The notes: generated by a model from the sequence alone, not told the origin. A stretch of DNA of 64,000 nucleotides from an uncultured Candidatus Actinomarina sp. (GCA_902604835.1 CACKZW010000002.1:17515-81514), one strand, 5' to 3'. Positions 1 to 10,209 are shown, counted from the stretch's first letter. Made by a program: numbers and translations.

Positions 1-1
1 A

Positions 2-574
2 ATGAATGCTGGTAAAAGTACAAACTTACTTCAGTCTGCGCACAACTATGAAGAAAGAAACATGAAAACATTAATTTTTACTCCAAAACTTGATGATAGG
101 TTTGGAGAAGGAAAGGTTTCGTCTCGAATTGGACTTGAGAGGGATGTAGAAAAATTCGAAGGAGAAGATGATTTATATGTTTGGACAGCTCATGAACATC
201 AAAGAGAGAAAATCTCCTGTGTTTTAGTTGATGAAGCTCAATTTCTTACTCCAAAACAAGTACTCCAGCTCTCCTTAGTAGTAGATAAATTAAAAATACC
301 AGTCTTATGTTATGGCTTAAGAACTGATTTTAGAGGAGAACCATTTCCCGGAAGTATATATCTTTTAGGTTGGTCAGATGAAATAACTGAGTTAAAAACA
401 ATTTGTAAATCCGGAAAAAAAGCAACCTTTAATGCTCGATTAGATGAAAACGGAAACAGAGTTACAGAAGGCGACCAAATATCAATTGGTCTGAATTATG
501 AGGCTCAAGCTAGAGAGGTATTTGAATTAGATAAAGTTTCACCAATAGATTATCAAATCCCAGAAGCTAATTAG
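2..574 (+). CDS. tdk: Thymidine kinase, 5' end truncated by the window edge; structural Zn ligands mostly lost
   Basis: Walker A remnant MNAGKST, Walker B VLVDEAQF, CYGLRTDFRG motif; the protein normally begins about 10 aa earlier. Confidence 0.95.
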   Translation: MNAGKSTNLLQSAHNYEERNMKTLIFTPKLDDRFGEGKVSSRIGLERDVEKFEGEDDLYVWTAHEHQREKISCVLVDEAQFLTPKQVLQLSLVVDKLKIPVLCYGLRTDFRGEPFPGSIYLLGWSDEITELKTICKSGKKATFNARLDENGNRVTEGDQISIGLNYEAQAREVFELDKVSPIDYQIPEAN

Positions 575-576
575 TT

Positions 577-1056
577 TTAACTGGTTTCTAAAGGTGGCTC
601 AGGTCTTGTAGCTAACCAAACACAAAGGGCTATTCCAAATGAACCAAATATTAAATCTCCAACGAGTGAAAATACTAGAAATATGGTAACAACGAAGGTT
701 GGAATTATCATCAAAATAGCAAGCTTTTTAGCTCTTCTTGAAAGACCTCTGTATGTTTTCCAATTTAAAATCATTGGACCAAAAAGTCTATGATTTTCTA
801 ACCATAATGTAAATCTATCTGAGCATTTTGAGAAAGCCCATGCTGCAATCAAAATAAAAACAGTTGTGGGAAGGCCAGGAATTATTATTCCAATATAACC
901 AAGTGATAATGACAATACACCAAGCGTAAAGAAGAATGGCTTATGTATCTTGATAAAAACTTTTGGAAAAAACCTATAAAGAATAATCAAAACAAAAATA
1001 CCAACACCTATATATAAAAATAGATTTCTAGGAATTTGTTCTAAAAAGTTTGTCAT
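577..1056 (-). CDS. ybaN: YbaN/DUF454-family inner membrane protein
   Basis: LGYIGIIIPGLPTTVFILIAAWAFSKCS..F..WL.NHRLFGP.I.NW family motif; several TM segments. Confidence 0.85.
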   Translation of the reverse strand: MTNFLEQIPRNLFLYIGVGIFVLIILYRFFPKVFIKIHKPFFFTLGVLSLSLGYIGIIIPGLPTTVFILIAAWAFSKCSDRFTLWLENHRLFGPMILNWKTYRGLSRRAKKLAILMIIPTFVVTIFLVFSLVGDLIFGSFGIALCVWLATRPEPPLETS

Positions 1057-1097
1057 ATATTAATTATTAAGCAGATTGAAAATAATCATAAATTATA

Positions 1098-1811
1098 TCA
1101 GACGACAAATACTCTTTTTGCTATAAACTGATCAATACCAAAATAATCATTTTTATTTGTACTGATGGTTATTGAATAATCTCCTGCATCCGCAACATTA
1201 ATTGTTGATCCAGGAATCATTTCATGAGTTTGTAGAAAATCAATCATTGACGAGTCTTTTTTCAGCTCTTCTGTTATTTTTTCTATAGAGTAAGTTTTAT
1301 TTGATTCTACATTTAATAAACTCAACATACTTTTTTCTTGATAATTTGAATATGGAATAGGGTTTCCAAATGGACCTGTTTTTGGATAACCTAACATTTT
1401 TAACATTGCTTTTTCAGTAATCGGGCTTAAAACATTTTCCCATCTCGAGGTTTCTTCGTAAACCTGGTCCCAAGGTAAGTTCAATATCTCGGACAGAAAT
1501 CGTTCAGTTATTCTATGTCTTCTTGCAATATTCTTTGCAAGACATTCCCCAGTTTCAGTAAGTTTCAAGTCATCATTAAATTCAATTAAACCGCTGTTCT
1601 GCATTCTTCCAACTACTTGTGATACATTTGCTCTACTAACACCAAGCCACTCAGCAACACGAGTTTGTTTTATTTCAATACCGACTTCTTTCAGATGAAA
1701 TATGGCTTCAGCATGGGTATAAAATGATTTAGGAAATTTTTCTATCTCTTCATAGCTCAATATTTGATCTTCATTTGAGATATTTTGAGAGTTTAAATCA
1801 TCAATTTGCAT
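1098..1811 (-). CDS. DtxR/IdeR/MntR-family metal-dependent transcriptional regulator (HTH, dimerisation and FeoA-like domains)
   Basis: RVAEWLGVSRANVSQVV HTH; RRHRITERFL; PW..V.EE..RWE; PFGNPIP. Confidence 0.92.
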   Translation of the reverse strand: MQIDDLNSQNISNEDQILSYEEIEKFPKSFYTHAEAIFHLKEVGIEIKQTRVAEWLGVSRANVSQVVGRMQNSGLIEFNDDLKLTETGECLAKNIARRHRITERFLSEILNLPWDQVYEETSRWENVLSPITEKAMLKMLGYPKTGPFGNPIPYSNYQEKSMLSLLNVESNKTYSIEKITEELKKDSSMIDFLQTHEMIPGSTINVADAGDYSITISTNKNDYFGIDQFIAKRVFVV

Positions 1812-1819
1812 ATTGTAGA

Positions 1820-1841
1820 TATGTTAACAGGTATTAACATA
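1820..1841. promoter_or_regulatory. Palindromic operator TATGTTAA-CAGGTA-TTAACATA just upstream of the DtxR-family gene
   Basis: Perfect 8-bp inverted arms with a 6-bp spacer, 9-30 bp from the ATG; contains an extended -10-like TGnTAACAT on the minus strand; a second copy is at 3222-3243. Confidence 0.7.
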
Positions 1842-1860
1842 ATCGCCATTTTGAGAAATT

Positions 1861-1977
1861 CTAAAATACAGGACAACCTACAACTGCGGTAAGGGCAATA
1901 AAGGCTAACCATACTAATGGCTCAAACTTAGTTATTAACTTGGGGTTATCCTCTAATTCTTTAATATTGTTATCCAT
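1861..1977 (-). CDS. Putative 38-aa single-pass membrane micro-protein ending in GCPVF
   Basis: MDNNIKELEDNPKLITKFEPLVWLAFIALTAVVGCPVF; extended -10 TGnTAAAAT 7 nt before the ATG (leaderless pattern). Confidence 0.55.
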   Translation of the reverse strand: MDNNIKELEDNPKLITKFEPLVWLAFIALTAVVGCPVF

Positions 1978-1984
1978 TTCTTTT

Positions 1985-2005
1985 ATTTTAACATTGTTGT
2001 AAAAT
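1985..2005. promoter_or_regulatory. Back-to-back TAAAAT -10 hexamers (minus 1985-1990, plus 2000-2005)
   Basis: Each lies 6-7 nt before an ATG, matching the leaderless layout of other genes in this window. Confidence 0.55.
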
Positions 2006-2011
2006 AATAAT

Positions 2012-2116
2012 ATGGCATGTCCTTTTGCATATTTACTAGTAGCTTTTATGTGGGTAGTCCGTAATGGCGGAAAAATATTTCCACGCGCTTTATTCAAGCA
2101 ATTTTCAAAGATTTAA
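2012..2116 (+). CDS. Putative 34-aa membrane micro-protein starting MACPF (absent from the ORF track)
   Basis: Manual translation MACPFAYLLVAFMWVVRNGGKIFPRALFKQFSKI; TAAAAT-6nt-ATG; hydrophobic core then basic tail; overlaps the hemH 3' end by 23 nt. Confidence 0.5.
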   Translation: MACPFAYLLVAFMWVVRNGGKIFPRALFKQFSKI

Positions 2117-3134
2117 CTTTTAAACTTTCAGCATCATTAACTATGGAAATTATAAGATTTATAGTTTCTTCAGAATCATTTAAACAAGGTATGTAAGTCA
2201 TTTTTTCTCCACCTGCATCAAAAAAAGTTTTTCTTCCCCTGATGTCAATTTCTTCTAATGTTTCTAAACAATCTGAAATAAAAGAAGGACATAGAATTCC
2301 TATTGATGATTTACCTTCATTTGGTAAAGCTTCCAATCTCTTATCAGTAAAAGGAGTCAACCATCCTGGACCAATTCTTGATTGATATGCAATTTCCCAT
2401 TCTGTATCATTTAGACCTAACTCTTTTGCGATCTTAATTGAGGCTTGTACTGTGTGAGCCTTGTAACAATCAGCTGAACCAAGTTCTTCTACTTCGCAAC
2501 ATTCACTGCTAGCAAAACAGTGAGATCCAGTTTCGTCTGTCTTTTTTGCTTGCCTCTTTGGAATACCGTGGTAGCTGAATATTAACTTATCAAATTTTTC
2601 TTTATTGAGATATTTTTGAACAGAATTTGCAACAGCACTGATATATTTTTGATTTTTGTAAAAGGGTTTTATATATACCAATTCAGCATCAGGAATAATT
2701 TCTTTTGCGATACGATCCACTTCTACTTGAGTAGTAATAGTAGTTGACATAGCATTATGAGGATAAAGCGGTAAAACAAAGATTTTGTTATAACCTTTAG
2801 ATTGTAAATTTTTAAGCGCTGACTCAATACATGGCTCTTCGTATCTCATCGCAACTTCTACATGCCAATCTGTTTTTCTTGATAACTTTTCCTTAATTTT
2901 TAATGTCGAAATTATAAGTGGGGAGCCTTTATCTGTCCAAATTTGTGAATATGCATGTAATGTTTGTTTAGGCCTAAAAGGTAAAATGAATAACTTTAAA
3001 ATAAGTTGTTGAAGAAATTTTGGTATGTCAACTACATAGTCATCAGATAAGAAAATATTTAAATATTTTCTAACACTTTTTTTGTTTAAGTCTCTAGGTG
3101 AACCTAAATTAACAAGAAGAACAGCTTTTTTCAT
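2094..3134 (-). CDS. hemH: Ferrochelatase of protoporphyrin/Gram-negative type, with an internal C-x5-CC-x9-C segment
   Basis: LLVNLGSP, FLSD..VVD, AMRY, FSYHGIP, YQSR.GP, PSF.SDCLETLEEI motifs. Confidence 0.95.
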   Translation of the reverse strand: MKKAVLLVNLGSPRDLNKKSVRKYLNIFLSDDYVVDIPKFLQQLILKLFILPFRPKQTLHAYSQIWTDKGSPLIISTLKIKEKLSRKTDWHVEVAMRYEEPCIESALKNLQSKGYNKIFVLPLYPHNAMSTTITTQVEVDRIAKEIIPDAELVYIKPFYKNQKYISAVANSVQKYLNKEKFDKLIFSYHGIPKRQAKKTDETGSHCFASSECCEVEELGSADCYKAHTVQASIKIAKELGLNDTEWEIAYQSRIGPGWLTPFTDKRLEALPNEGKSSIGILCPSFISDCLETLEEIDIRGRKTFFDAGGEKMTYIPCLNDSEETINLIISIVNDAESLKVKSLKIA

Positions 3135-3200
3135 AAGATAATTAATTGTAACTTTTTATTTCAAAAATAAGTAATCAGGAGGCTAATAAAAAAAATTATA

Positions 3201-3243
3201 AAATAATTACTATTAACTTTATTTGTTAACTACTATTAACAAA
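3201..3243. promoter_or_regulatory. Operator TTTGTTAA-CTACTA-TTAACAAA (3222-3243) plus a degenerate tandem copy (3201-3218) between hemH and futA
   Basis: 15/18 identity to the site at 1822-1839; TACTATTAAC is repeated 23 bp apart; ends 23 bp upstream of the futA ATG. Confidence 0.7.
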
Positions 3244-3266
3244 ATATAAGCTAATAAAGGTAAAAA

Positions 3267-4382
3267 ATGAACAAAAAATTTATTGCTTTGATTTCTGTAA
3301 TGATCATGGTTTTTGCAGCATGTGCCGCCGAAGGCGAGCAAGGTGAAGCAGGACCAGCAGGCGAAGCAGGGCCAGCAGGGCCAGCAGGCGAGGTTTCTCA
3401 AGAAGCTATTGACGCTGCTGTTGAAGCTGCTCTGGCTGAACCTGAGGCAGAAGTTGGAGGGACACTTGTTATTTATAGTGGTAGAAAAGAAAGCTTAGTT
3501 GCTGATGTAATTGCTGCTTTTGAAGCTACTTCAGGAGTAAAAGTTGAAGTTAGATATGCAAAAAGTGCTGCACTAGCTGGGACTTTAGAACTTGAAGGTG
3601 CAATTAGCCCAGCAGATGTTTTTCTTTCACAAGATCCAGTAAGTCTAGGCGTTGTAGCCAAAGCAGGTCTATTTGATAGATTACCAGCTGATTTACTTGA
3701 TAACGTCCCATCATGGGCTGTTGACAAAAATGGTTTTTGGGTAGGTACATCAGGAAGATCTCGATCTTTAGTTGTTGACACAAGAGATGTAACAGATGCC
3801 GAATTACCTTCTGATATTTATGGTTTAAATGATGAAAAATTTAGAAATAGATTGGGACTTGCACCAACAAACTCATCTTTTATTGCAATGATTGCATGCA
3901 TGATTGAGTCTGATGGTGAAGAAAAAGTTCTTGAGTGGTTAACTGCTATCAATGGACTGGGATATACAGAATATCCAAAGAACTCACCTCAAGTTGCTGC
4001 CGCAGCTGCAGGTGAACTAGACATTGGAATGATTAATCACTATTACACATTGAGAACATTGGCTGAAGCTGGTGATACTCCTATTAAGAATGTGTTTTTA
4101 GATGGTGGTTGTGGTGCAATGGTGATGCCAGCAGGTGCAGGTGTTTTGTCAACTAGTCAAAACAAACCAGCAGCTTTAGCATTTATTGAATATTTACATT
4201 CAACAAGTGCTCAAGAGCATTTTACTAATACCGTATATGAGTTCCCTCTCGTACCAGGTGTAACACCAAATGCATTATTACCAGATATAAACAGTTTGAA
4301 TTCTCCATCGAATTTAAATTGGTCAGCGTTAGCACTTTGGCAGGAAAAAGCTGTTGAATTGATTGCGCAGGCAGGTTTCTAG
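3267..4382 (+). CDS. futA: Fe3+ ABC transporter substrate-binding lipoprotein (FutA/FbpA-like) with a collagen-like linker
   Basis: Lipobox FAAC (C19); LVIYSGR, SPADVF, GRSR, GMINHYY iron-binding tyrosine pair. Confidence 0.88.
   Translation: MNKKFIALISVMIMVFAACAAEGEQGEAGPAGEAGPAGPAGEVSQEAIDAAVEAALAEPEAEVGGTLVIYSGRKESLVADVIAAFEATSGVKVEVRYAKSAALAGTLELEGAISPADVFLSQDPVSLGVVAKAGLFDRLPADLLDNVPSWAVDKNGFWVGTSGRSRSLVVDTRDVTDAELPSDIYGLNDEKFRNRLGLAPTNSSFIAMIACMIESDGEEKVLEWLTAINGLGYTEYPKNSPQVAAAAAGELDIGMINHYYTLRTLAEAGDTPIKNVFLDGGCGAMVMPAGAGVLSTSQNKPAALAFIEYLHSTSAQEHFTNTVYEFPLVPGVTPNALLPDINSLNSPSNLNWSALALWQEKAVELIAQAGF
3333..3395 (+). repeat. Seven Gly-X-Y triplets (GEQ GEA GPA GEA GPA GPA GEV)
   Basis: Locally GC-rich repeats such as gcagggccagcagggccagca, directly after the lipidated Cys. 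Confidence 0.9.
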
Positions 4383-4422
4383 TCAGTCATTAAATTAACT
4401 AGTAAGCTCGAAACCGAATAAG

Positions 4423-4459
4423 ATTCTGGCCAAGGAAACTTGGCCAGAATTTTTCTTTT
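4423..4459 (+). terminator. Intrinsic terminator between futA and futB
   Basis: 12-bp perfect stem ATTCTGGCCAAG-GAAA-CTTGGCCAGAAT followed by TTTTCTTTT. Confidence 0.9.
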
Positions 4460-4478
4460 AATAACTTAAAATCATAGA

Positions 4479-4484
4479 TATCCT
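4479..4484 (+). promoter_or_regulatory. -10 hexamer TATCCT for a leaderless futB transcript
   Basis: TAnnnT 7 nt before the GTG, downstream of the terminator; no SD. Confidence 0.5.
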
Positions 4485-4491
4485 TATAAAT

Positions 4492-6048
4492 GTGAGGATC
4501 CCAAAAACTCTGTTAACAATAAATTCGCTAATTTTAGTAATATTTATTTCTCCTGTAATTTATATGCTTTGGAGATTTCTTAATTTTTCAAGATCTATTT
4601 CCAGTTTTTTCGAATCATGGGATGTTTTTGGTTTAGTGTTTAATACATTAATAGTATTTTTTGCTGTTGTATTTTCAAGCTTGATAATTGGTTTAATAAT
4701 ATCAATTATCACCGTAAGGTTTGATTTTCCTGGATCAAAAATCTTATTCACTTTGTGTGCACTTCCATTAGTTATACCCTCATATATAGGGGCCTTGACA
4801 TATATTTCAGCATTTTCTCCCAAAGGATTATTCGTTCAAATTTTTAACAGGTACGGCATTAATGAAATCGCTGGAATAGAGGGTTTTTTAGGAAGTTGGT
4901 TAGTTTTAACTTTGTTTACTTACCCTTACGTACAGCTCATTTGCACAAGTGCATTGAGGAATCTTGATTCAACAGTTGAAGATGCTGCCCGTTCTCTCGG
5001 CGTAAATCAATTCAAGGTCTATACGAATGTTGTTATTCCCCGGCTTAAAAAGCCCATAATATATTCTGGATTATTGGTGGGACTTTATGTTATTTCTGAT
5101 TTCGGAGCAGTTTCATTAATGCGATATTCTACAGTTACGAAAGCTATTTATGCATATTATGAATTGAGCATACTTGGAGACCCTGTAATATTTTACTCAA
5201 GCCTTCTAATTGTTCTAGCCTTAATAATTAGTTTTGCTCAAAGAGGATCTGATACCTCAAGGTCTGCAAAAGTATCAGGAACGCCAAGAATACCAAAAAA
5301 AATATTACTTAATGGTAAAGGGAAATTAATTGCTTACTCGTTTCTAGGCCTTGTAGTTTTTCTTGGCTTGATTATTCCAATTTCTGTATTGAGCTTTTGG
5401 TTATTAAGAGGAATTTATTATGGGAACGATGTTAGTTCTTCAATTCCTGGAATCCTTGGATCTTTTTCAGCTGCGATAACAACCTCATTTTTTGCAATAA
5501 TTATAGCTATGCCTATCGTAATTTTGATATCTCAATACAAATCTAGATTTGGTGACCTCCTTGAAAAGATAATGTTGTCTCTTTATGGATTACCTCATCT
5601 CGCAGTAGGTGTTTCAATATTATTCATCTCCATAAAATTATTTCCTACTATTTATCAAAGTTTTTTTGCACTAGTAATTTCCTATTTGATTGTCTTTTTA
5701 CCTCAGGCAATAGGTGGAGGTCAAGCTTCAATGGAACAAGTGAAGTCATCCTATATTGAGGCAAGTCTTGGCCTTGGACAGTCAAAAATAGATACATTTA
5801 GAAAAATTACTTTCCCATTAATATATAGAGGTTTATTTGCTGGTGGTGCACTTGTTTTTCTTTCAACAATGAAAGAGTTACCTCAGACCTTGCTACTAAG
5901 ACCAACAGAATTCAGCACTATGGCAGTTGACGTATGGTCATTTGCATCTGAAGCGTTATTTACTCAAGCTGCATTTTCCGCCTTTATATTGTTGGCAATA
6001 AGTGCAATTCCGACTTATATATTAAGTACTAGGAATTTAGAGGTTTAA
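4492..6048 (+). CDS. futB: Iron ABC transporter permease (FutB/FbpB-like)
   Basis: Two EAA-type loops (EDAARSLG, EASLGLG); PLVIPSYIGA; MKELP.TLLLRP. Confidence 0.9.
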   Translation: MRIPKTLLTINSLILVIFISPVIYMLWRFLNFSRSISSFFESWDVFGLVFNTLIVFFAVVFSSLIIGLIISIITVRFDFPGSKILFTLCALPLVIPSYIGALTYISAFSPKGLFVQIFNRYGINEIAGIEGFLGSWLVLTLFTYPYVQLICTSALRNLDSTVEDAARSLGVNQFKVYTNVVIPRLKKPIIYSGLLVGLYVISDFGAVSLMRYSTVTKAIYAYYELSILGDPVIFYSSLLIVLALIISFAQRGSDTSRSAKVSGTPRIPKKILLNGKGKLIAYSFLGLVVFLGLIIPISVLSFWLLRGIYYGNDVSSSIPGILGSFSAAITTSFFAIIIAMPIVILISQYKSRFGDLLEKIMLSLYGLPHLAVGVSILFISIKLFPTIYQSFFALVISYLIVFLPQAIGGGQASMEQVKSSYIEASLGLGQSKIDTFRKITFPLIYRGLFAGGALVFLSTMKELPQTLLLRPTEFSTMAVDVWSFASEALFTQAAFSAFILLAISAIPTYILSTRNLEV

Positions 6049-6050
6049 AA

Positions 6051-7076
6051 ATGGTATTTGATAATTTAATTATTCGAGCTAGATCATTATCAAAATCTTA
6101 TGGCGACGAAACCGTATTAGAAGACTTCAATATTGATATTTGGTATGGTTCAATTTTTGGAATCCTAGGTGTTTCCGGATCTGGTAAAACAACAGCTTTA
6201 AGACTATTGGCTGGATTTGAGAATCCTGACGAGGGAACAATTGAAATGCATAATAAAGTAATTTATGACAAAAAAATTAATATTCCACCAGAGGAGAGAA
6301 AAATTGGTATGGTTTTTCAGGATTACGCTCTTTTTCCTCATTTAACTGTTGAAAAAAATATTGCCTTCGGTCTTTCAAAGGACGAAATTAAAAATGGAAG
6401 ATTAGAAGAAATAATCAACATGACTAACTTACAACTATATAGAAATAAATATCCACAAGATATTTCTGGAGGCCAACAACAAAGAGTATCTATTGCAAGA
6501 GCCTTAGCCCCAAAACCAGAAGTCATATTATTGGATGAACCTTTTACAAGTTTAGATGCACAAATGGCTAGGGACTTAAGAGAAGAGGTTGTTTCTTTAT
6601 TGAGAGCAACAAAAACTACCGGAATTATCGTTACACATGATCAAGAAGAAGCACTATCAGTTTGTGATATTGTAAGTGTCCTTGAAAACGGAAAAGTCAT
6701 ACAAAGTGCAACCCCGCAAGAGATTTACTTAAACCCTATTAGTCAAACAGTAGCAAACTCAGTCGGTGATCCAAATATTATAAAAGGAACCTCTACAAAT
6801 GGAAGAGTAAAAACTTCGCTTGGTACATTCAATTCAGCATATGACGGAGACTTAGATGTATCAATTAGGCCAGAATGTATAGAAGTTAATTTAGACTCTA
6901 ATGGGGATTACATTGTAAAGGAATGTATATTCTATGGACATGATCAAGTGATCTCATTTGAAAATAAAAATGGTGAAGTTTTTAGAGCAAGATCCTTACC
7001 TTCAATGATTTTTGAGCCAGGGGATCAAGTATGTATCGATGTAACCGAAGTTACTACTTTTCCCTCAAAGCGCTGA
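6051..7076 (+). CDS. futC: Iron ABC transporter ATPase (FutC/FbpC-like)
   Basis: GVSGSGKT, VFQDYALFPHL, ISGGQQQR, LLDEPF; operon context. Confidence 0.88.
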   Translation: MVFDNLIIRARSLSKSYGDETVLEDFNIDIWYGSIFGILGVSGSGKTTALRLLAGFENPDEGTIEMHNKVIYDKKINIPPEERKIGMVFQDYALFPHLTVEKNIAFGLSKDEIKNGRLEEIINMTNLQLYRNKYPQDISGGQQQRVSIARALAPKPEVILLDEPFTSLDAQMARDLREEVVSLLRATKTTGIIVTHDQEEALSVCDIVSVLENGKVIQSATPQEIYLNPISQTVANSVGDPNIIKGTSTNGRVKTSLGTFNSAYDGDLDVSIRPECIEVNLDSNGDYIVKECIFYGHDQVISFENKNGEVFRARSLPSMIFEPGDQVCIDVTEVTTFPSKR

Positions 7077-7259
7077 ATTAATTTTTGAAATTTTACCTGC
7101 AATATTTTGTAAATCGCTTTCTATTTCAGCTAATCTCTCTTTTGCTCTTTTATTAGAATTTTCTGATATAAATTCCCTTGATGAGGATAGAGATTTTGAG
7201 ATAACCTCAATTTCATTAAGCATTTTTTGGATTTCTTGATACATTTCTTGTTTATTCAT
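7065..7259 (-). CDS. Small (~64 aa) soluble coiled-coil hypothetical protein
   Basis: MNKQEMYQEIQKMLNEIEVISKSL...LAEIESDLQNIAGKISKINSAL heptad pattern; the ORF track starts at 7286 but the second Met is preferred. Confidence 0.6.
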   Translation of the reverse strand: MNKQEMYQEIQKMLNEIEVISKSLSSSREFISENSNKRAKERLAEIESDLQNIAGKISKINSAL

Positions 7260-7294
7260 AATTAAGTAGATGTTTGTAAATTCCATATTAATAT

Positions 7295-8122
7295 GTGAGT
7301 GTCAAAGGGGGGAATTTGATATCTGAAAAAATAGGGAAACTAAGACGTTTCAATATCATCATGGGCTTCATGCACTTGATTCAAGGGTCTGGATTATTTT
7401 GGCTAGGAACTGTTGTAAATTCAGATTTTGTTGTGCCTATTACGCTTACTCAACTGGTTGGTGTAGGCAGCCCTGAAGATCCCTCATCTTTTGCACTTGT
7501 TCCTGAGTTAGAAATCTGGAGAGAAATAACGAACTTTGGTCCAGCCGTGGCTACATTTTTGTTAGCTTCTGCTGTTGCACATTTTTTGATTTCTGGACCA
7601 TTTTATAAAAAATATCAAGAAGATCTTGCAAAAGGAATCAACAAAGTTAGATGGATTGAATATTCAATAAGCGCTTCTGTAATGATTGTCCTTATTGCAT
7701 TACTTGTTGGAATTTATGATGTTTGGGCCCTTCTTGGAATTTTCTTTATGAATGCTGCCATGTGTTGGTTTGGTTGGATGATGGAAGTTAATAACCAATA
7801 TACTGATAAAGTTGATTGGACAAGTTACATTATGGGGTGTTTAGTTGGTGTTACACCATGGATATTTATATTTATCAATCTGATAGGTGACGGAGTAGCA
7901 ACTGATTCCAATCCACAAGGAGTTCCTCAATTTGTTGTTTGGATATTTGTAAGTATATTTTTATTCTTCAATACTTTTTCCATAAATATGGTTCTCCAAT
8001 ATAAAGGTGTTGGAAAATGGAAAGACTATTTGTATGGAGAAAGAGCATATATATGGTTGAGTCTTCTAGCAAAAACAGCTTTAGCTTGGCAAGTATTCTT
8101 TGGAACCTACCAACCTAATTAA
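7295..8122 (+). CDS. Heliorhodopsin
   Basis: MHLIQ and AHFL histidines, RWIEYSISAS (counterion Glu), LSLLAKTALAWQVF with the retinal-binding Lys; 7 TM segments; start may be TTG at 7316. Confidence 0.95.
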   Translation: MSVKGGNLISEKIGKLRRFNIIMGFMHLIQGSGLFWLGTVVNSDFVVPITLTQLVGVGSPEDPSSFALVPELEIWREITNFGPAVATFLLASAVAHFLISGPFYKKYQEDLAKGINKVRWIEYSISASVMIVLIALLVGIYDVWALLGIFFMNAAMCWFGWMMEVNNQYTDKVDWTSYIMGCLVGVTPWIFIFINLIGDGVATDSNPQGVPQFVVWIFVSIFLFFNTFSINMVLQYKGVGKWKDYLYGERAYIWLSLLAKTALAWQVFFGTYQPN

Positions 8123-8197
8123 ATTATTTAATTTTTTTAATTAAAAAAAACATTAAAACAAAAATAAAAACCATACCTATATATGACAAAACCATTT

Positions 8198-9283
8198 TTA
8201 ACTAACAATCTCAATTAATGGGATGGCGACTTCTTTAGGTGTAAGTCCGCCGTGGTATCCTCTTAAATTTGCACTCAGATGATTTGGAAAAATAATATGA
8301 CCATCATCAAGTAAGAACACATGTTCAGGAAAAAAGTTATTTCTTTCATCGTCATTTGGCAATCCAATGAGTGATTCTATTTCTTGTTTTTCTAGGAAAT
8401 GTCCAGGGATATTTTTAAAGATATTTTTTATTTTTTTCATATCTCCATTTATATATACCGATCTTTGGTCTCCGTAAATCTTTACTGAATCATCATATAC
8501 AATCTTGTGTCTATTTTTATCATCTACGTTTATGACACCATGATCAGCTGTTAAACAAGTGTATCGACCCACATCACTTTTTGTTATTTCCGATAGAAAC
8601 TCAGAAAACTTTTTAACTTCTATTAACCATTCTTCGCTATTTGTACCATAAACATGTGCAGCAACATCGATCACGGGATAATATAAAAAGTTAAATTGAT
8701 TATCTAAAATATTTGGTAAGGTGAATATTTCTCCAAGTTCATCTAAAGTTTCATATCCAATTTGATTTGCCCCTCTATATAAATGTTTTGACAAAGATGT
8801 GTTGATTAAATCCTTAGGTTGAATGACATTAAAAACTATATTTTTTTCATTAAGAATGTTCCAAATTGTTTTTTGATTAGAAAAAAAATTTTTATCCTGT
8901 AAATAATTTTCCGAACCTCTCCAATTCAATGTATTAATTAATTTATTTTCAGATTTATCAAAATGGTAATATCCAATCAACCCATTTTCTATTGGGTCGC
9001 TTCCTAAATTGACTGATCCCAGAGCTACACTTGTTGAGCTTGGAAATGTTGAGACAATTTCATCAGTCTGGTTCTGTGTAAGTATATTATCTAAATTCTC
9101 AATATTTTTACTACCAAGGCCATCTACTAATATGAAGTTAATTTTTTTCATTGAGCTTTCATATTTCTTTAAACGTAATTTACTATCTAATTTAAAAACC
9201 TCTTCAGAACATAATTTGTTCACAATTGTTTGTATCAAGTCTGTTATGTTTGGAGAATTGAGAAATTTTTTTTTATCCATCAA
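8198..9283 (-). CDS. Alkaline phosphatase superfamily protein (nucleotide pyrophosphatase/phosphodiesterase type)
   Basis: LVDGLG, STFPSST nucleophile region, D...H (IDVAAH), TADHG, YHGGL. Confidence 0.85.
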   Translation of the reverse strand: MMDKKKFLNSPNITDLIQTIVNKLCSEEVFKLDSKLRLKKYESSMKKINFILVDGLGSKNIENLDNILTQNQTDEIVSTFPSSTSVALGSVNLGSDPIENGLIGYYHFDKSENKLINTLNWRGSENYLQDKNFFSNQKTIWNILNEKNIVFNVIQPKDLINTSLSKHLYRGANQIGYETLDELGEIFTLPNILDNQFNFLYYPVIDVAAHVYGTNSEEWLIEVKKFSEFLSEITKSDVGRYTCLTADHGVINVDDKNRHKIVYDDSVKIYGDQRSVYINGDMKKIKNIFKNIPGHFLEKQEIESLIGLPNDDERNNFFPEHVFLLDDGHIIFPNHLSANLRGYHGGLTPKEVAIPLIEIVS

Positions 9284-9343
9284 AAAATTTTACAAAAGAA
9301 TTCCACCGATGTTTTAAAAAAAACTAAAATTTTAGAAGCATAC

Positions 9344-9349
9344 TAAAGT
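9344..9349 (+). promoter_or_regulatory. -10 hexamer TAAAGT for a leaderless nuoA transcript
   Basis: TAnnnT-6nt-ATG; no SD. Confidence 0.5.
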
Positions 9350-9355
9350 TAATAT

Positions 9356-9721
9356 ATGATTTCTTATTTTCAAGATTACGTAACGGTTGGAGCAATGATA
9401 GGTTTGGGACTCTTATTGTTTTTAGTTTTTATTTCTTTATCTGCATTGCTTAGTCCAAAGAAACCTACTCCAGAAAAAATTAAGACATATGAGTGTGGTG
9501 TAGATCCTGTTGGAGGGGGATGGAGCCAAACATATGTTAGATACTATATCTTTGGGTTACTTTTTGTAATATTTGACGTTGAGGCTGTATTTATCTTTCC
9601 ATGGGCATTAAATCTCGAGAATCTTGGATATTTTGGTTTAATTGAGATGTTTATTTTTATTTTTATTCTTCTGCTTGGTTTAATTTATGCAATTAGAAAG
9701 GATGTCTTGAAATGGGAGTAA
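9356..9721 (+). CDS. nuoA: NADH-quinone oxidoreductase subunit A
   Basis: [29 protein letters not shown]. Confidence 0.95.
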
Positions 9722-10209
9722 TAGACAAATTTGGAGTTCCTAAGCCTATTTCTAAAATACTTAATTGGGCGAGAGCATATGATATGTGGTATTTTCAATT
9801 TGGACTAGCCTGTTGTGCCATTGAAGTTATGGCCGCTAGCGGACCAAGACATGATTTTATGAGATTAGGAATCATTCCTCTTCCTGCATCTCCAAGACAA
9901 GCTGATTTGATGGTAGTTGCGGGTACTGTAACAGACAAAATGGCACCTTCTGTAAAAAGATTGTATGATCAAATGCCTGAACCAAAATATGTGATTTCTA
10001 TGGGTTCTTGTTCTAATAGTGGGGGTCCTTATTGGGACTCATATTCAGTTACAAAGGGTGTTGATCAGCTCATACCTGTGGATGTATATGTCCCAGGTTG
10101 CCCACCTCGACCAGAAGCACTGCAAGAGGGAATTGTTTTACTTCAGAAAAAAATAAAAGGTGAAAATATGAATGAAAAGTGGAGAGAAAAAGACATTGAA
10201 CCAGTCTGA
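9712..10209 (+). CDS. nuoB: NADH-quinone oxidoreductase subunit B
   Basis: [23 protein letters not shown]. Confidence 0.95.

What the first reader, a model, noticed from the sequence alone, without database searches (positions are those of the whole stretch)
577..7076. Compact iron/heme module: YbaN, altered DtxR, two CP micro-ORFs, Cys-cluster ferrochelatase and FutABC
Seen: these genes are contiguous, and one palindrome lies upstream of both the regulator and futA. Established: YbaN/DUF454 genes often accompany iron or heme utilisation loci, FutABC imports Fe3+, and ferrochelatase commits iron to heme. Inference: a circuit that divides scarce iron between uptake and heme synthesis, possibly sensing heme rather than free Fe2+. 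I do not recognise this combination as a described system.
Basis: inference. Interest (0 to 1): 0.65.

Follow-up and report, generated by a model that had tools for sequence, protein, structure and literature searches.

The report
Rewired iron repressor locus with micro-proteins
In the tiny marine bacterium Candidatus Actinomarina, which cannot make heme, one small locus joins an iron importer, a repressor that kept its DNA sites but lost its usual metal-sensing residues, two previously unannotated 30-40-residue membrane proteins and, in about half the species, a stand-alone ferrochelatase.

Summary
ybaN/DUF454, a DtxR-family regulator, ferrochelatase and an FbpABC/FutABC-type Fe3+ importer are contiguous. 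The palindrome TGTTAA-N6-TTAACA occurs exactly twice in the 935-kb genome, once before the regulator and once before futA.

Both sites are kept in all 24 genus loci aligned. In genome-wide counts, 33 dtxR-positive genomes hold 63 exact copies. The five species that lost dtxR hold none.

The regulator has lost most primary metal ligands: M10 to T/S, H98 to Y, C102 to S or K, H106 to N. It stays under purifying selection.

The two "CP micro-ORFs" are real genes: a 38-aa one on the minus strand ending GCPVF and a 34-aa one on the plus strand starting MACPF. They are divergent and probably leaderless, show a coding signature, and are confined to Actinomarinaceae.

The family lacks heme biosynthesis: hemB is in 1 of 65 genomes and chdC is also absent. 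The ferrochelatase is therefore an orphan, accessory, known [2Fe-2S]-insertion type, probably used for porphyrin salvage.

Best reading: a two-operator DtxR regulon covering dtxR-ybaN and futABC, with or without hemH, descended from an ancestral Acidimicrobiia dtxR-fut pair. The effector is unknown, and heme sensing is untested. I rate it a new variant of a known kind.

The parts
577..1056 (-). ybaN (DUF454 inner-membrane protein), directly downstream of the regulator and probably co-transcribed with it
   Evidence: Pfam PF04304 E 2e-32. The gap to dtxR is 41 nt here and 0 nt in some relatives. Present in all 32 genomes examined, including those without dtxR.
1098..1811 (-). DtxR-family regulator with a degenerate metal site. 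The true start may be the in-frame TTG at 1760.
   Evidence: Pfam and NCBIfam hits. IdeR/DtxR structures match at E 1e-28. Ligand table. The N-terminal 10-20 residues are not conserved, and public gene calls are 225-232 aa.
1822..1839 (.). Operator 1: TGTTAACAGGTATTAACA, between the sORF-A stop and the dtxR start
   Evidence: Exact in the window. Conserved in the genus. Absent where dtxR is absent.
1861..1977 (-). sORF-A: a 38-aa micro-protein with a polar N-terminus (invariant P-K-x3-K-[FY]-E-P), one TM helix and a C-terminal G-C-P-x-F
   Evidence: Intact in 27 or more distinct nucleotide versions. 26 of 27 third positions vary, against 14 and 10 at positions 1 and 2. Synonymous to nonsynonymous is 3259:2814, better than any other frame. 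No Pfam family.
1985..1990 (-). -10-like TAAAAT, 7 nt before the sORF-A ATG (leaderless arrangement)
   Evidence: Sequence. A TAnnAT hexamer sits at the same 7-nt distance in almost all loci.
2000..2005 (+). -10-like TAAAAT, 6 nt before the sORF-B ATG (leaderless arrangement)
   Evidence: Sequence. TAAAAT or TATAAT lies 6-9 nt before the ATG in all loci.
2012..2116 (+). sORF-B: a 34-aa micro-protein, M-x-C-P-[FY]-A-Y-L-L-x-x-F-M-W-x-V-R-N-G-G-K plus a basic tail. Its 3' end overlaps the hemH stop, convergently.
   Evidence: Invariant C3 P4 A6 Y7 F12 M13 W14 G19 G20. 16 of 18 third positions vary, against 8 and 5. Synonymous to nonsynonymous is 1773:1032. Present in every locus examined, including the dtxR-less ones. 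Confined to the family. No Pfam family.
2094..3134 (-). Orphan ferrochelatase with an internal C-x6-CC-x10-C insertion ([2Fe-2S] motif type)
   Evidence: PF00762 E 3e-89 and TIGR00109 at 229 bits. The catalytic His (SYHGIP) and the ETLEEI helix are present. The insertion matches the motif described in PMC8529089 and the hemH of other Acidimicrobiia.
3201..3245 (.). Operator 2 region: a conserved block with an extra TTAAC half-site (3212-3216), then TGTTAACTACTATTAACA (3224-3241), 25 nt before the futA ATG and 90 nt before the divergent hemH ATG
3267..4382 (+). futA/fbpA: an Fe3+-binding lipoprotein with lipobox VFAAC and a Gly-x-y linker
   Evidence: 7w3w at 219 bits and TtFbpA at 174 bits. 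The NHYY Tyr pair is conserved.
4492..6048 (+). futB/fbpB: fused double permease
   Evidence: Two BPD_transp_1 domains.
6051..7076 (+). futC/fbpC: ATPase with a TOBE domain
   Evidence: ABC_tran plus TOBE_2. The ferric ABC ATPase model scores 238 bits.

Best explanation
This is the local iron regulon of Candidatus Actinomarina.

A DtxR-family dimeric repressor binds two 18-bp '6-6-6' palindromes (TGTTAA-N6-TTAACA) that overlap promoters. One lies in front of its own operon (dtxR-ybaN). The other lies in front of the Fe3+ ABC importer futABC. Where the ferrochelatase is divergent from futA, or carries its own copy of the site, it is covered too. The regulon is just these two sites.

The pairing of this regulator with a fut operon is inherited from other Acidimicrobiia. 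Their orthologue has a full Mn/Fe-type ligand set and a GC-rich version of the same palindrome. In Actinomarinaceae the primary metal site was rebuilt: T/S10, Y98, S or K102, N106. Sensing must therefore go through the remaining His/Glu ligands, through a different ligand, or not happen at all. This step is inferred and open.

Between the two operators sit two lineage-specific, divergently transcribed, probably leaderless genes. Each encodes a single-pass membrane micro-protein. By the positive-inside rule, the Cys-Pro motif of each would lie at the outer face of the membrane. They have no operator of their own. sORF-B is the most constant companion of ybaN and futABC.

The ferrochelatase is an orphan enzyme in a heme auxotroph. 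With no ChdC and no earlier pathway steps, it can only metalate imported protoporphyrin IX with the iron the transporter brings in. About half the species have lost it.
For: Shown:
- Gene identities.
- Only two exact palindromes in the genome, both at promoters of this locus.
- Both sites conserved in 24 of 24 genus loci, with variable spacers.
- 63 exact sites in 33 dtxR-positive genomes and 0 in 5 dtxR-negative genomes. The reversed control pattern gives 13 in 38.
- The dtxR-negative species have also lost both sites at the orthologous position.
- An outgroup with dtxR divergent from futABC carries TGTCAG-GCGCAC-CTGACA and intact ligands.
- The DtxR-family regulator SloR uses the same 6-6-6 architecture. 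Its mntH site is TTTTAAGCATACTTAACA (PMC12096823).
- Ligand substitutions are fixed across a genus whose regulators are only 64-70% identical.
- The micro-ORFs show a coding signature and conserved -10 boxes.
- They are restricted to the family.
- hemB and chdC are absent. hemH is present only at this locus and only in some species.
- One species (G061) has a third operator-like site, with one mismatch, 24 nt before a co-directional hemH.
Against: - No binding, expression or metal data exist. Regulation is inferred from sequence only.
- The promoter scan is no better than shuffles. Promoter overlap rests on hand-read -10 boxes.
- The micro-proteins have no operator and no detectable homologue, so their link to iron or heme is purely positional.
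- All flanking genes are collinear in this genus too.
- Two Fur-family genes lie elsewhere in the genome. One of them could be the real iron sensor.
- The substrate of the ferrochelatase is inferred from the absence of ChdC, not tested.
Confidence: 0.68

Rival explanations
1. An ordinary iron (or manganese) repressor. The rebuilt site still binds Fe2+ or Mn2+ through H79, E83, E105 and E172, the conserved His next to position 10, and perhaps Y98. The locus would then behave like any IdeR/DtxR-controlled iron uptake operon, and the micro-proteins and ybaN would be unrelated neighbours.
For: Four classical ligands are retained and an invariant His follows position 10. The orthologue in other Acidimicrobiia has a full ligand set and the same target operon. 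The operator type matches a metal-dependent relative, SloR.
Against: Half the genus carries Lys at position 102, which would occupy the primary metal position rather than bind a metal. H98Y and H106N are fixed, so only 1 of 4 primary ligands is left. ybaN is in the regulator's own operon.
Confidence: 0.4
2. A heme-responsive (or otherwise non-metal) circuit. The regulator, alone or through the Cys-Pro micro-proteins, reports heme status. Low heme would then switch on iron import and, where present, the ferrochelatase that makes heme from salvaged porphyrin.
For: - The organism is a heme auxotroph (bioRxiv 10.1101/2021.01.11.426183).
- The metal site is degenerate.
- Both micro-proteins carry C-P followed by a hydrophobic residue, as in heme regulatory motifs.
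- In the one heme-prototrophic species, the whole hem operon runs straight into sORF-B, sORF-A, operator, dtxR, ybaN.
- Co-repressing uptake and ferrochelatase makes more sense for a heme signal than for an iron signal.
Against: A Cys-Pro dipeptide is weak evidence. By topology, both CP motifs would face outside the cell, away from the regulator. The regulator has no CP motif. No DtxR-family heme sensor is known to me. The micro-proteins persist in species without the regulator.
Confidence: 0.15
3. A metal-independent, constitutive autorepressor. Lys or Ser at position 102 mimics the metal-bound state. The protein would simply hold futABC and itself at a low fixed level in a streamlined cell, on the way to being lost altogether.
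For: K102 is present in half the genus. The regulator and both operators were lost together, once, in a clade that keeps futABC. The regulon has only two sites.
Against: The regulator is retained with strong conservation in most species, and the ancillary-site ligands are kept. A constitutive repressor of an essential nutrient importer is hard to rationalise in iron-poor surface water.
Confidence: 0.2
4. The ferrochelatase works in reverse, or as a porphyrin or heme handler. It would release iron from imported heme rather than make heme.
For: It sits next to the iron importer under the same operator, in a cell that must import heme.
Against: The catalytic residues and the [2Fe-2S] insertion are those of ordinary synthetic enzymes. 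Heme is needed intact by an auxotroph. Half the species do without the gene.
Confidence: 0.1

Closest known systems
IdeR/DtxR-controlled iron uptake operons of Actinobacteria
   Same: Same protein family and domain order: wHTH, dimerisation domain and SH3-like domain. It is autoregulated, with palindromic operators over the promoters of an iron importer.
   Different: Three of the four primary-site ligands are replaced, as are two of the five ancillary ones. The operator is TGTTAA-N6-TTAACA, not the 19-bp TTAGGTTAGGCTAACCTAA box (that box is quoted from my own knowledge). The regulon is only two sites.
SloR/ScaR/MtsR/PsaR branch of the DtxR family (Mn-responsive, streptococci)
   Same: The operator has the same 6-6-6 inverted-repeat architecture with a TTAA core. 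The SloR mntH site TTTTAAGCATACTTAACA differs from the Actinomarina consensus in one half-site base (PMC12096823). Both have a C-terminal FeoA/SH3-like domain and control an ABC metal importer.
   Different: Those proteins keep Asp/Glu/His/Cys metal ligands and need metal for binding. Identity is low (SloR structure 5cvi, E 3e-14).
E. coli MntR with the small protein MntS (from my own knowledge)
   Same: A DtxR-family regulator whose locus logic includes a roughly 40-aa protein that modulates metal handling.
   Different: MntS is soluble, unrelated in sequence and directly repressed by MntR. The micro-proteins here are membrane-spanning, have no operator and have no known function.
Internal-insertion [2Fe-2S] ferrochelatases (Myxococcus xanthus type; PMC8529089)
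   Same: A 20-30-residue internal insertion with C-x(n)-CC-x(n)-C, on a protoporphyrin-type core (DCLETLEEI helix).
   Different: Here it is the only heme-pathway gene in the genome. It is dispensable, and it sits under an iron-regulator operator.
Orphan ferrochelatases of heme auxotrophs (Haemophilus influenzae, from my own knowledge; Brugia malayi, cited in PMC8529089)
   Same: The last enzyme is kept without the rest of the pathway, allowing use of external protoporphyrin.
   Different: This is a free-living oligotrophic marine actinobacterium. The gene is polymorphic among species and genetically coupled to Fe3+ import.

Membership tests
DtxR/IdeR/MntR family of metalloregulators | N-terminal wHTH plus the metal-binding/dimerisation domain (PF01325 + PF02742) | tested here: met
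   PF02742 at 79.5 bits and PF01325 at 28.7 bits, both over their cut-offs. IdeR structure matches at E 1e-28 over residues 34-209.
DtxR/IdeR/MntR family of metalloregulators | Primary (regulatory) metal site: M10/C102/E105/H106, or D/E/E/H in Mn sensors | tested here: not met
   T or S at position 10, S or K at 102, E at 105, N (D in one) at 106. Fixed in 24 genus loci.
DtxR/IdeR/MntR family of metalloregulators | Ancillary site H79/E83/H98/E172/Q175 | tested here: inconclusive
   H79, E83 and E172 are kept. H98 is Y and Q175 is K.
DtxR/IdeR/MntR family of metalloregulators | Palindromic operator over the promoters of its own gene and of a metal importer | tested here: met
   Two conserved palindromes. 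They covary with the gene across species.
DtxR/IdeR/MntR family of metalloregulators | Metal-dependent DNA binding | not testable with these tools
   Needs EMSA or ITC.
FbpABC/FutABC/HitABC Fe3+ ABC importers | SBP of the ferric-binding-protein fold with the paired Tyr ligands | tested here: met
   219 bits to 7w3w and 174 bits to T. thermophilus FbpA. The NHYY motif aligns to NNYY and NHYY.
FbpABC/FutABC/HitABC Fe3+ ABC importers | Fused two-domain permease and an ATPase with a TOBE domain in one operon | tested here: met
   Two BPD_transp_1 stretches in a 518-aa protein. ABC_tran plus TOBE_2.
Ferrochelatase, internal-insertion [2Fe-2S] class | Ferrochelatase core with the catalytic His and the acidic helix | tested here: met
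   PF00762 at 299 bits. SYHGIP and SDCLETLEEID align to human H263 and E343.
Ferrochelatase, internal-insertion [2Fe-2S] class | Internal 22-34-aa insertion with C-x-CC-x-C | tested here: met
   HCFASSECCEVEELGSADCY. The same insertion is in G061, G234, G037 and G047. The motif is defined in PMC8529089.
Ferrochelatase, internal-insertion [2Fe-2S] class | A bound [2Fe-2S] cluster | not testable with these tools
   Needs spectroscopy.
DUF454 (YbaN) | Match to PF04304 over its full length | tested here: met
   112 bits, profile positions 2-115 of 115.
Heme regulatory motif (CP) proteins | Cys-Pro followed by a hydrophobic residue | tested here: met
   ACPF or MCPY in sORF-B and GCP[VAI]F in sORF-A, invariant. 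This is a two-residue motif, so the test is weak.
Heme regulatory motif (CP) proteins | Heme binding through the Cys thiolate | not testable with these tools
   Needs spectroscopy with synthetic peptides.
Type I toxin-antitoxin small hydrophobic peptides | Overlapping antisense RNA, variable or multicopy distribution | tested here: not met
   Single copy at one fixed locus in 54 of 64 genus genomes. The two genes diverge from start codons 34-39 nt apart and do not overlap.

The most novel reading that the evidence does not exclude
A DtxR-family protein in a very abundant heme-auxotrophic marine bacterium has given up metal sensing and now reports heme or porphyrin status, possibly together with the two Cys-Pro membrane micro-proteins and YbaN. 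Those three could form a small heme- or iron-handling device at the outer face of the membrane. The regulator would couple Fe3+ import and porphyrin metalation to heme need. If so, it would be the first heme-responsive member of the family, and it would give DUF454 a function.
Probability: 0.12. Interest if true: 0.85.

Novelty: new variant of a known kind. Interest (0 to 1): 0.56.

Why it matters
Candidatus Actinomarina is among the most abundant actinobacteria of the sunlit ocean, where iron limits growth, and it cannot make heme. This locus appears to be its whole DtxR-type iron regulon.

It offers a natural experiment. The same genus holds the rewired regulator with either Ser or Lys at the old metal position. 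It also holds a clade that deleted the regulator and both operators together, species with and without an orphan ferrochelatase, and one species with a complete hem operon inserted at the same spot.

The locus also yields two new, conserved, unannotated membrane micro-proteins. It gives a testable context for DUF454, a widespread family of unknown function that the literature links to iron starvation and hemophore loci. The parts are small and can be tested in standard laboratory hosts.

Tried and rejected
- orf39 (1793-1912, minus strand) is not a gene. It is frame-broken in relatives that are 95% identical.
- orf78 (1861-2097) is not one gene. It splits into sORF-A plus the antisense of sORF-B, and the frames drift apart in relatives.
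- Rfam finds no RNA family in 1-10000, only two chance miRNA hits. The conserved block at 2010-2090 is therefore coding rather than a riboswitch.
- Pfam and NCBIfam give nothing for either micro-protein. The one hit, Fur_reg_FbpB for one sORF-A variant at E 0.24, is noise.
- The 1.8-billion-protein search with sORF-B found only five real clusters, all of the same family. The search with orf78 found only close relatives.
- The search for homologous proteins refuses queries under 40 aa.
- Type I toxin-antitoxin and leader-peptide readings are rejected on copy number, fixed position and gene order.
- Horizontal origin of hemH from Bacteroidota is not needed. Other Acidimicrobiia carry the same insertion type at 35-36% identity. 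The genome-contig scan returned only Actinomarina.
- The G021 hem contig is not contamination. It overlaps the dtxR contig by 54 identical bases, up to an adapter.
- The promoter and terminator scan was uninformative.
- Structure prediction was not run. The tool returns no coordinates, so it could not show the geometry of the altered site.

Full report
**What is there**

The window is contig 2, positions 17515-81514, of a 935-kb, 33% GC assembly. Public records of near-identical loci name it uncultured Candidatus Actinomarina. Positions 1 to 8200 read:
- tdk (2-574, plus strand)
- ybaN/DUF454 (577-1056, minus)
- a DtxR-family regulator (1098-1811, minus)
- a 283-nt 'gap'
- ferrochelatase (2094-3134, minus)
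- an Fe3+ ABC importer on the plus strand (SBP 3267-4382, permease 4492-6048, ATPase 6051-7076)
- a small coiled-coil ORF and a heliorhodopsin

The SBP matches solved ferric-binding proteins (7w3w at 219 bits, Thermus FbpA at 174 bits) and keeps the Tyr-Tyr iron ligands.

**The palindrome**

TGTTAA-N6-TTAACA is exact at 1822-1839, 11 nt before the annotated dtxR start. It is exact again at 3224-3241, 25 nt before the futA ATG and 90 nt before the divergent hemH ATG. These are the only exact copies in the whole assembly.

I fetched the orthologous locus from 23 other species of the genus. Their regulators are 64-98% identical to the window's. Both sites are present in all of them. The half-sites are invariant apart from one or two mismatches at Op1 in three species. 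The spacers vary freely: CAGGTA, CACGTA, CAGTTA, CAGTAA, CTACTA, CTAGTA, GTACTA and others. This is the footprint of a protein-binding site.

A genome-wide count gives 63 exact sites in 33 dtxR-positive genomes, almost all of them the two at this locus. It gives none in the five species that lack dtxR. The reversed control pattern gives 13 in 38 genomes. In those five species the orthologous intergenic regions have lost both sites.

Upstream of futA the conserved block also holds a third TTAAC half-site.

The architecture is the 6-6-6 motif described for the DtxR-family regulator SloR. Its mntH site, TTTTAAGCATACTTAACA, is one base away from this consensus (PMC12096823).

In a 67% GC member of the same class, the orthologue is divergent from futABC, and the intergenic region holds TGTCAG-GCGCAC-CTGACA. 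The regulator-fut pairing and the operator geometry are therefore older than the family.

**The regulator**

Aligned to IdeR, the primary site M10/C102/E105/H106 reads T/S/E/N in the window. Across the genus it reads T or S, S or K, E, and N (D in one species). H98 is Y throughout and Q175 is K. H79, E83, E105 and E172 are kept, and an invariant His follows position 10.

Outgroup Acidimicrobiia have E10, H98, E/G/A102 and H106 (T in one locus). The change is therefore derived, fixed and under selection, not decay. A Lys at position 102 in half the genus would fill the metal position rather than bind a metal.

What the protein senses cannot be read from sequence. Two Fur-family genes lie elsewhere in the genome.

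**The micro-ORFs**

The mechanical 78-aa ORF is not a gene. Instead there are two:
- sORF-A (1977 down to 1861, minus strand) encodes MDNNIKELEDNPKLITKFEPLVWLAFIALTAVVGCPVF.
- sORF-B (2012-2116, plus strand) encodes MACPFAYLLVAFMWVVRNGGKIFPRALFKQFSKI.

Both are intact in every locus that carries them. Third codon positions carry most of the variation: 26 of 27 against 14 and 10 for sORF-A, and 16 of 18 against 8 and 5 for sORF-B. Synonymous changes are commoner in these frames than in any other frame or strand.

Their start codons diverge 34-39 nt apart. Each is preceded at 6-9 nt by TAAAAT or TATAAT (1985-1990 and 2000-2005 in the window). This is the arrangement of leaderless actinobacterial mRNAs, and that reading is an inference.

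sORF-B has a hydrophobic N-terminal helix and a tail with five basic residues. sORF-A has a polar N-terminus with invariant P-K-x3-K-[FY]-E-P and a C-terminal helix. By the positive-inside rule, both Cys-Pro motifs would lie at the outer face of the membrane (inference).

Neither matches any Pfam or NCBIfam model. sORF-B has only five real clusters among 1.8 billion proteins. It is found in 54 of 64 genus genomes and in the sister genus. Two further genus genomes give only weak partial hits, and among 336 other Acidimicrobiia there is a single marginal hit (E 0.005, inside an 899-aa ORF), which I take as chance.

**Heme**

hemB is absent from 64 of 65 family genomes, including closed or nearly closed ones. 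chdC is absent from the genus. This agrees with the published report that Actinomarinales are heme auxotrophs (bioRxiv 10.1101/2021.01.11.426183).

The ferrochelatase is therefore an orphan. It is a protoporphyrin-type enzyme with an internal C-x6-CC-x10-C insertion, the known [2Fe-2S] insertion class (PMC8529089). That insertion is also present in the hem clusters of other Acidimicrobiia. Without ChdC its only useful substrate is imported protoporphyrin IX (inference).

It occurs only at this locus, in 15 of the 32 species placed on a tree of the locus genes. The pattern points to ancestral presence and at least four losses.

Its orientation changes. It is divergent from futA here and co-directional in G061 and G234. 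In G061 a third operator-like site stands 24 nt before it.

**A natural deletion and insertion series**

One clade lost dtxR together with both operators. Within that clade, three species also lost sORF-A. All keep ybaN, sORF-B and futABC, and their futA has diverged faster, to 46-61% identity.

One species (G021) carries a complete coproporphyrin-type hem operon. Its contig overlaps the dtxR contig by 54 identical bases. The order there is hem operon, sORF-B, sORF-A, operator, dtxR, ybaN, all on one strand. This is the only positional evidence that ties the micro-proteins to heme.

**Reading**

The regulatory core, a repressor with two operators over dtxR-ybaN and futABC with or without hemH, is well supported by comparative evidence but has not been tested at the bench. 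The effector is open. I give an ordinary metal signal about 0.4, a constitutive repressor about 0.2 and a heme signal about 0.15.

The micro-proteins and YbaN are real parts of the locus, but their function is unknown. DUF454 has been reported as induced by iron starvation and as a neighbour of hemophore and heme oxygenase genes.

**Limits**

The consensus promoter scan was no better than chance. The assembly is 83% complete, so a third operator in missing sequence cannot be excluded for this genome. The more complete relatives also have only two.

Noticed in passing
window 7065-8122: A heliorhodopsin (7295-8122, PF18761 E 2e-88) lies head to head with a 73-aa helical ORF (7065-7286). The ORF overlaps the futC stop by 12 nt. 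The pair is conserved next to futABC in every species examined, although the small ORF drops to 38-55% identity.
   Followed up: partly
window 3267-3400: FutA starts with a lipoprotein signal (lipobox VFAAC). A collagen-like Gly-x-y stretch follows (GEQGEAGPAGEAGPAGPAGE), presumably a flexible tether for a membrane-anchored binding protein.
   Followed up: no
L080 (G021:C23) and L079 (G021:C62): One species of the genus carries a full nine-gene coproporphyrin-type hem operon (hemH', hemA, C, D, B, E, Y, L, chdC) inserted next to sORF-B. In that species sORF-B is inverted relative to all others. On the locus tree, one gain is more parsimonious than three losses.
   Followed up: partly
L079, L080, L081 contig ends: Contigs of this public single-cell assembly end in Nextera transposase adapter sequence (CTGTCTCTTATACACATCT...), so untrimmed adapters are in the deposited record.
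   Followed up: no
L062-L066 (G009, G010, G033, G001, G028): In the clade that lost the regulator and operators, futA has diverged to 46-61% identity, against 77% or more elsewhere. futB and futC are also faster there. This suggests relaxed or shifted selection on the importer after loss of control.
   Followed up: partly
window 1758-1817: A TACAAT hexamer (1812-1817, minus strand) abuts the annotated dtxR ATG, and the first 10-20 residues are not conserved. The real start is probably downstream, for example the in-frame TTG at 1760. Public gene calls for homologues are 225-232 aa.
   Followed up: partly
window 3200-3229: On the minus strand, the left half-site of operator 2 reads TTAACA. Eighteen nt downstream lies TATTTT. 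This is a possible hemH promoter whose -35 lies inside the operator. It is a consensus match only.
   Followed up: no
L080 9063-9944 (G021 hemH'): The coproporphyrin-type ferrochelatase of G021 ends with C-x3-CC, the incomplete C-terminal Cys grouping discussed in PMC8529089.
   Followed up: no
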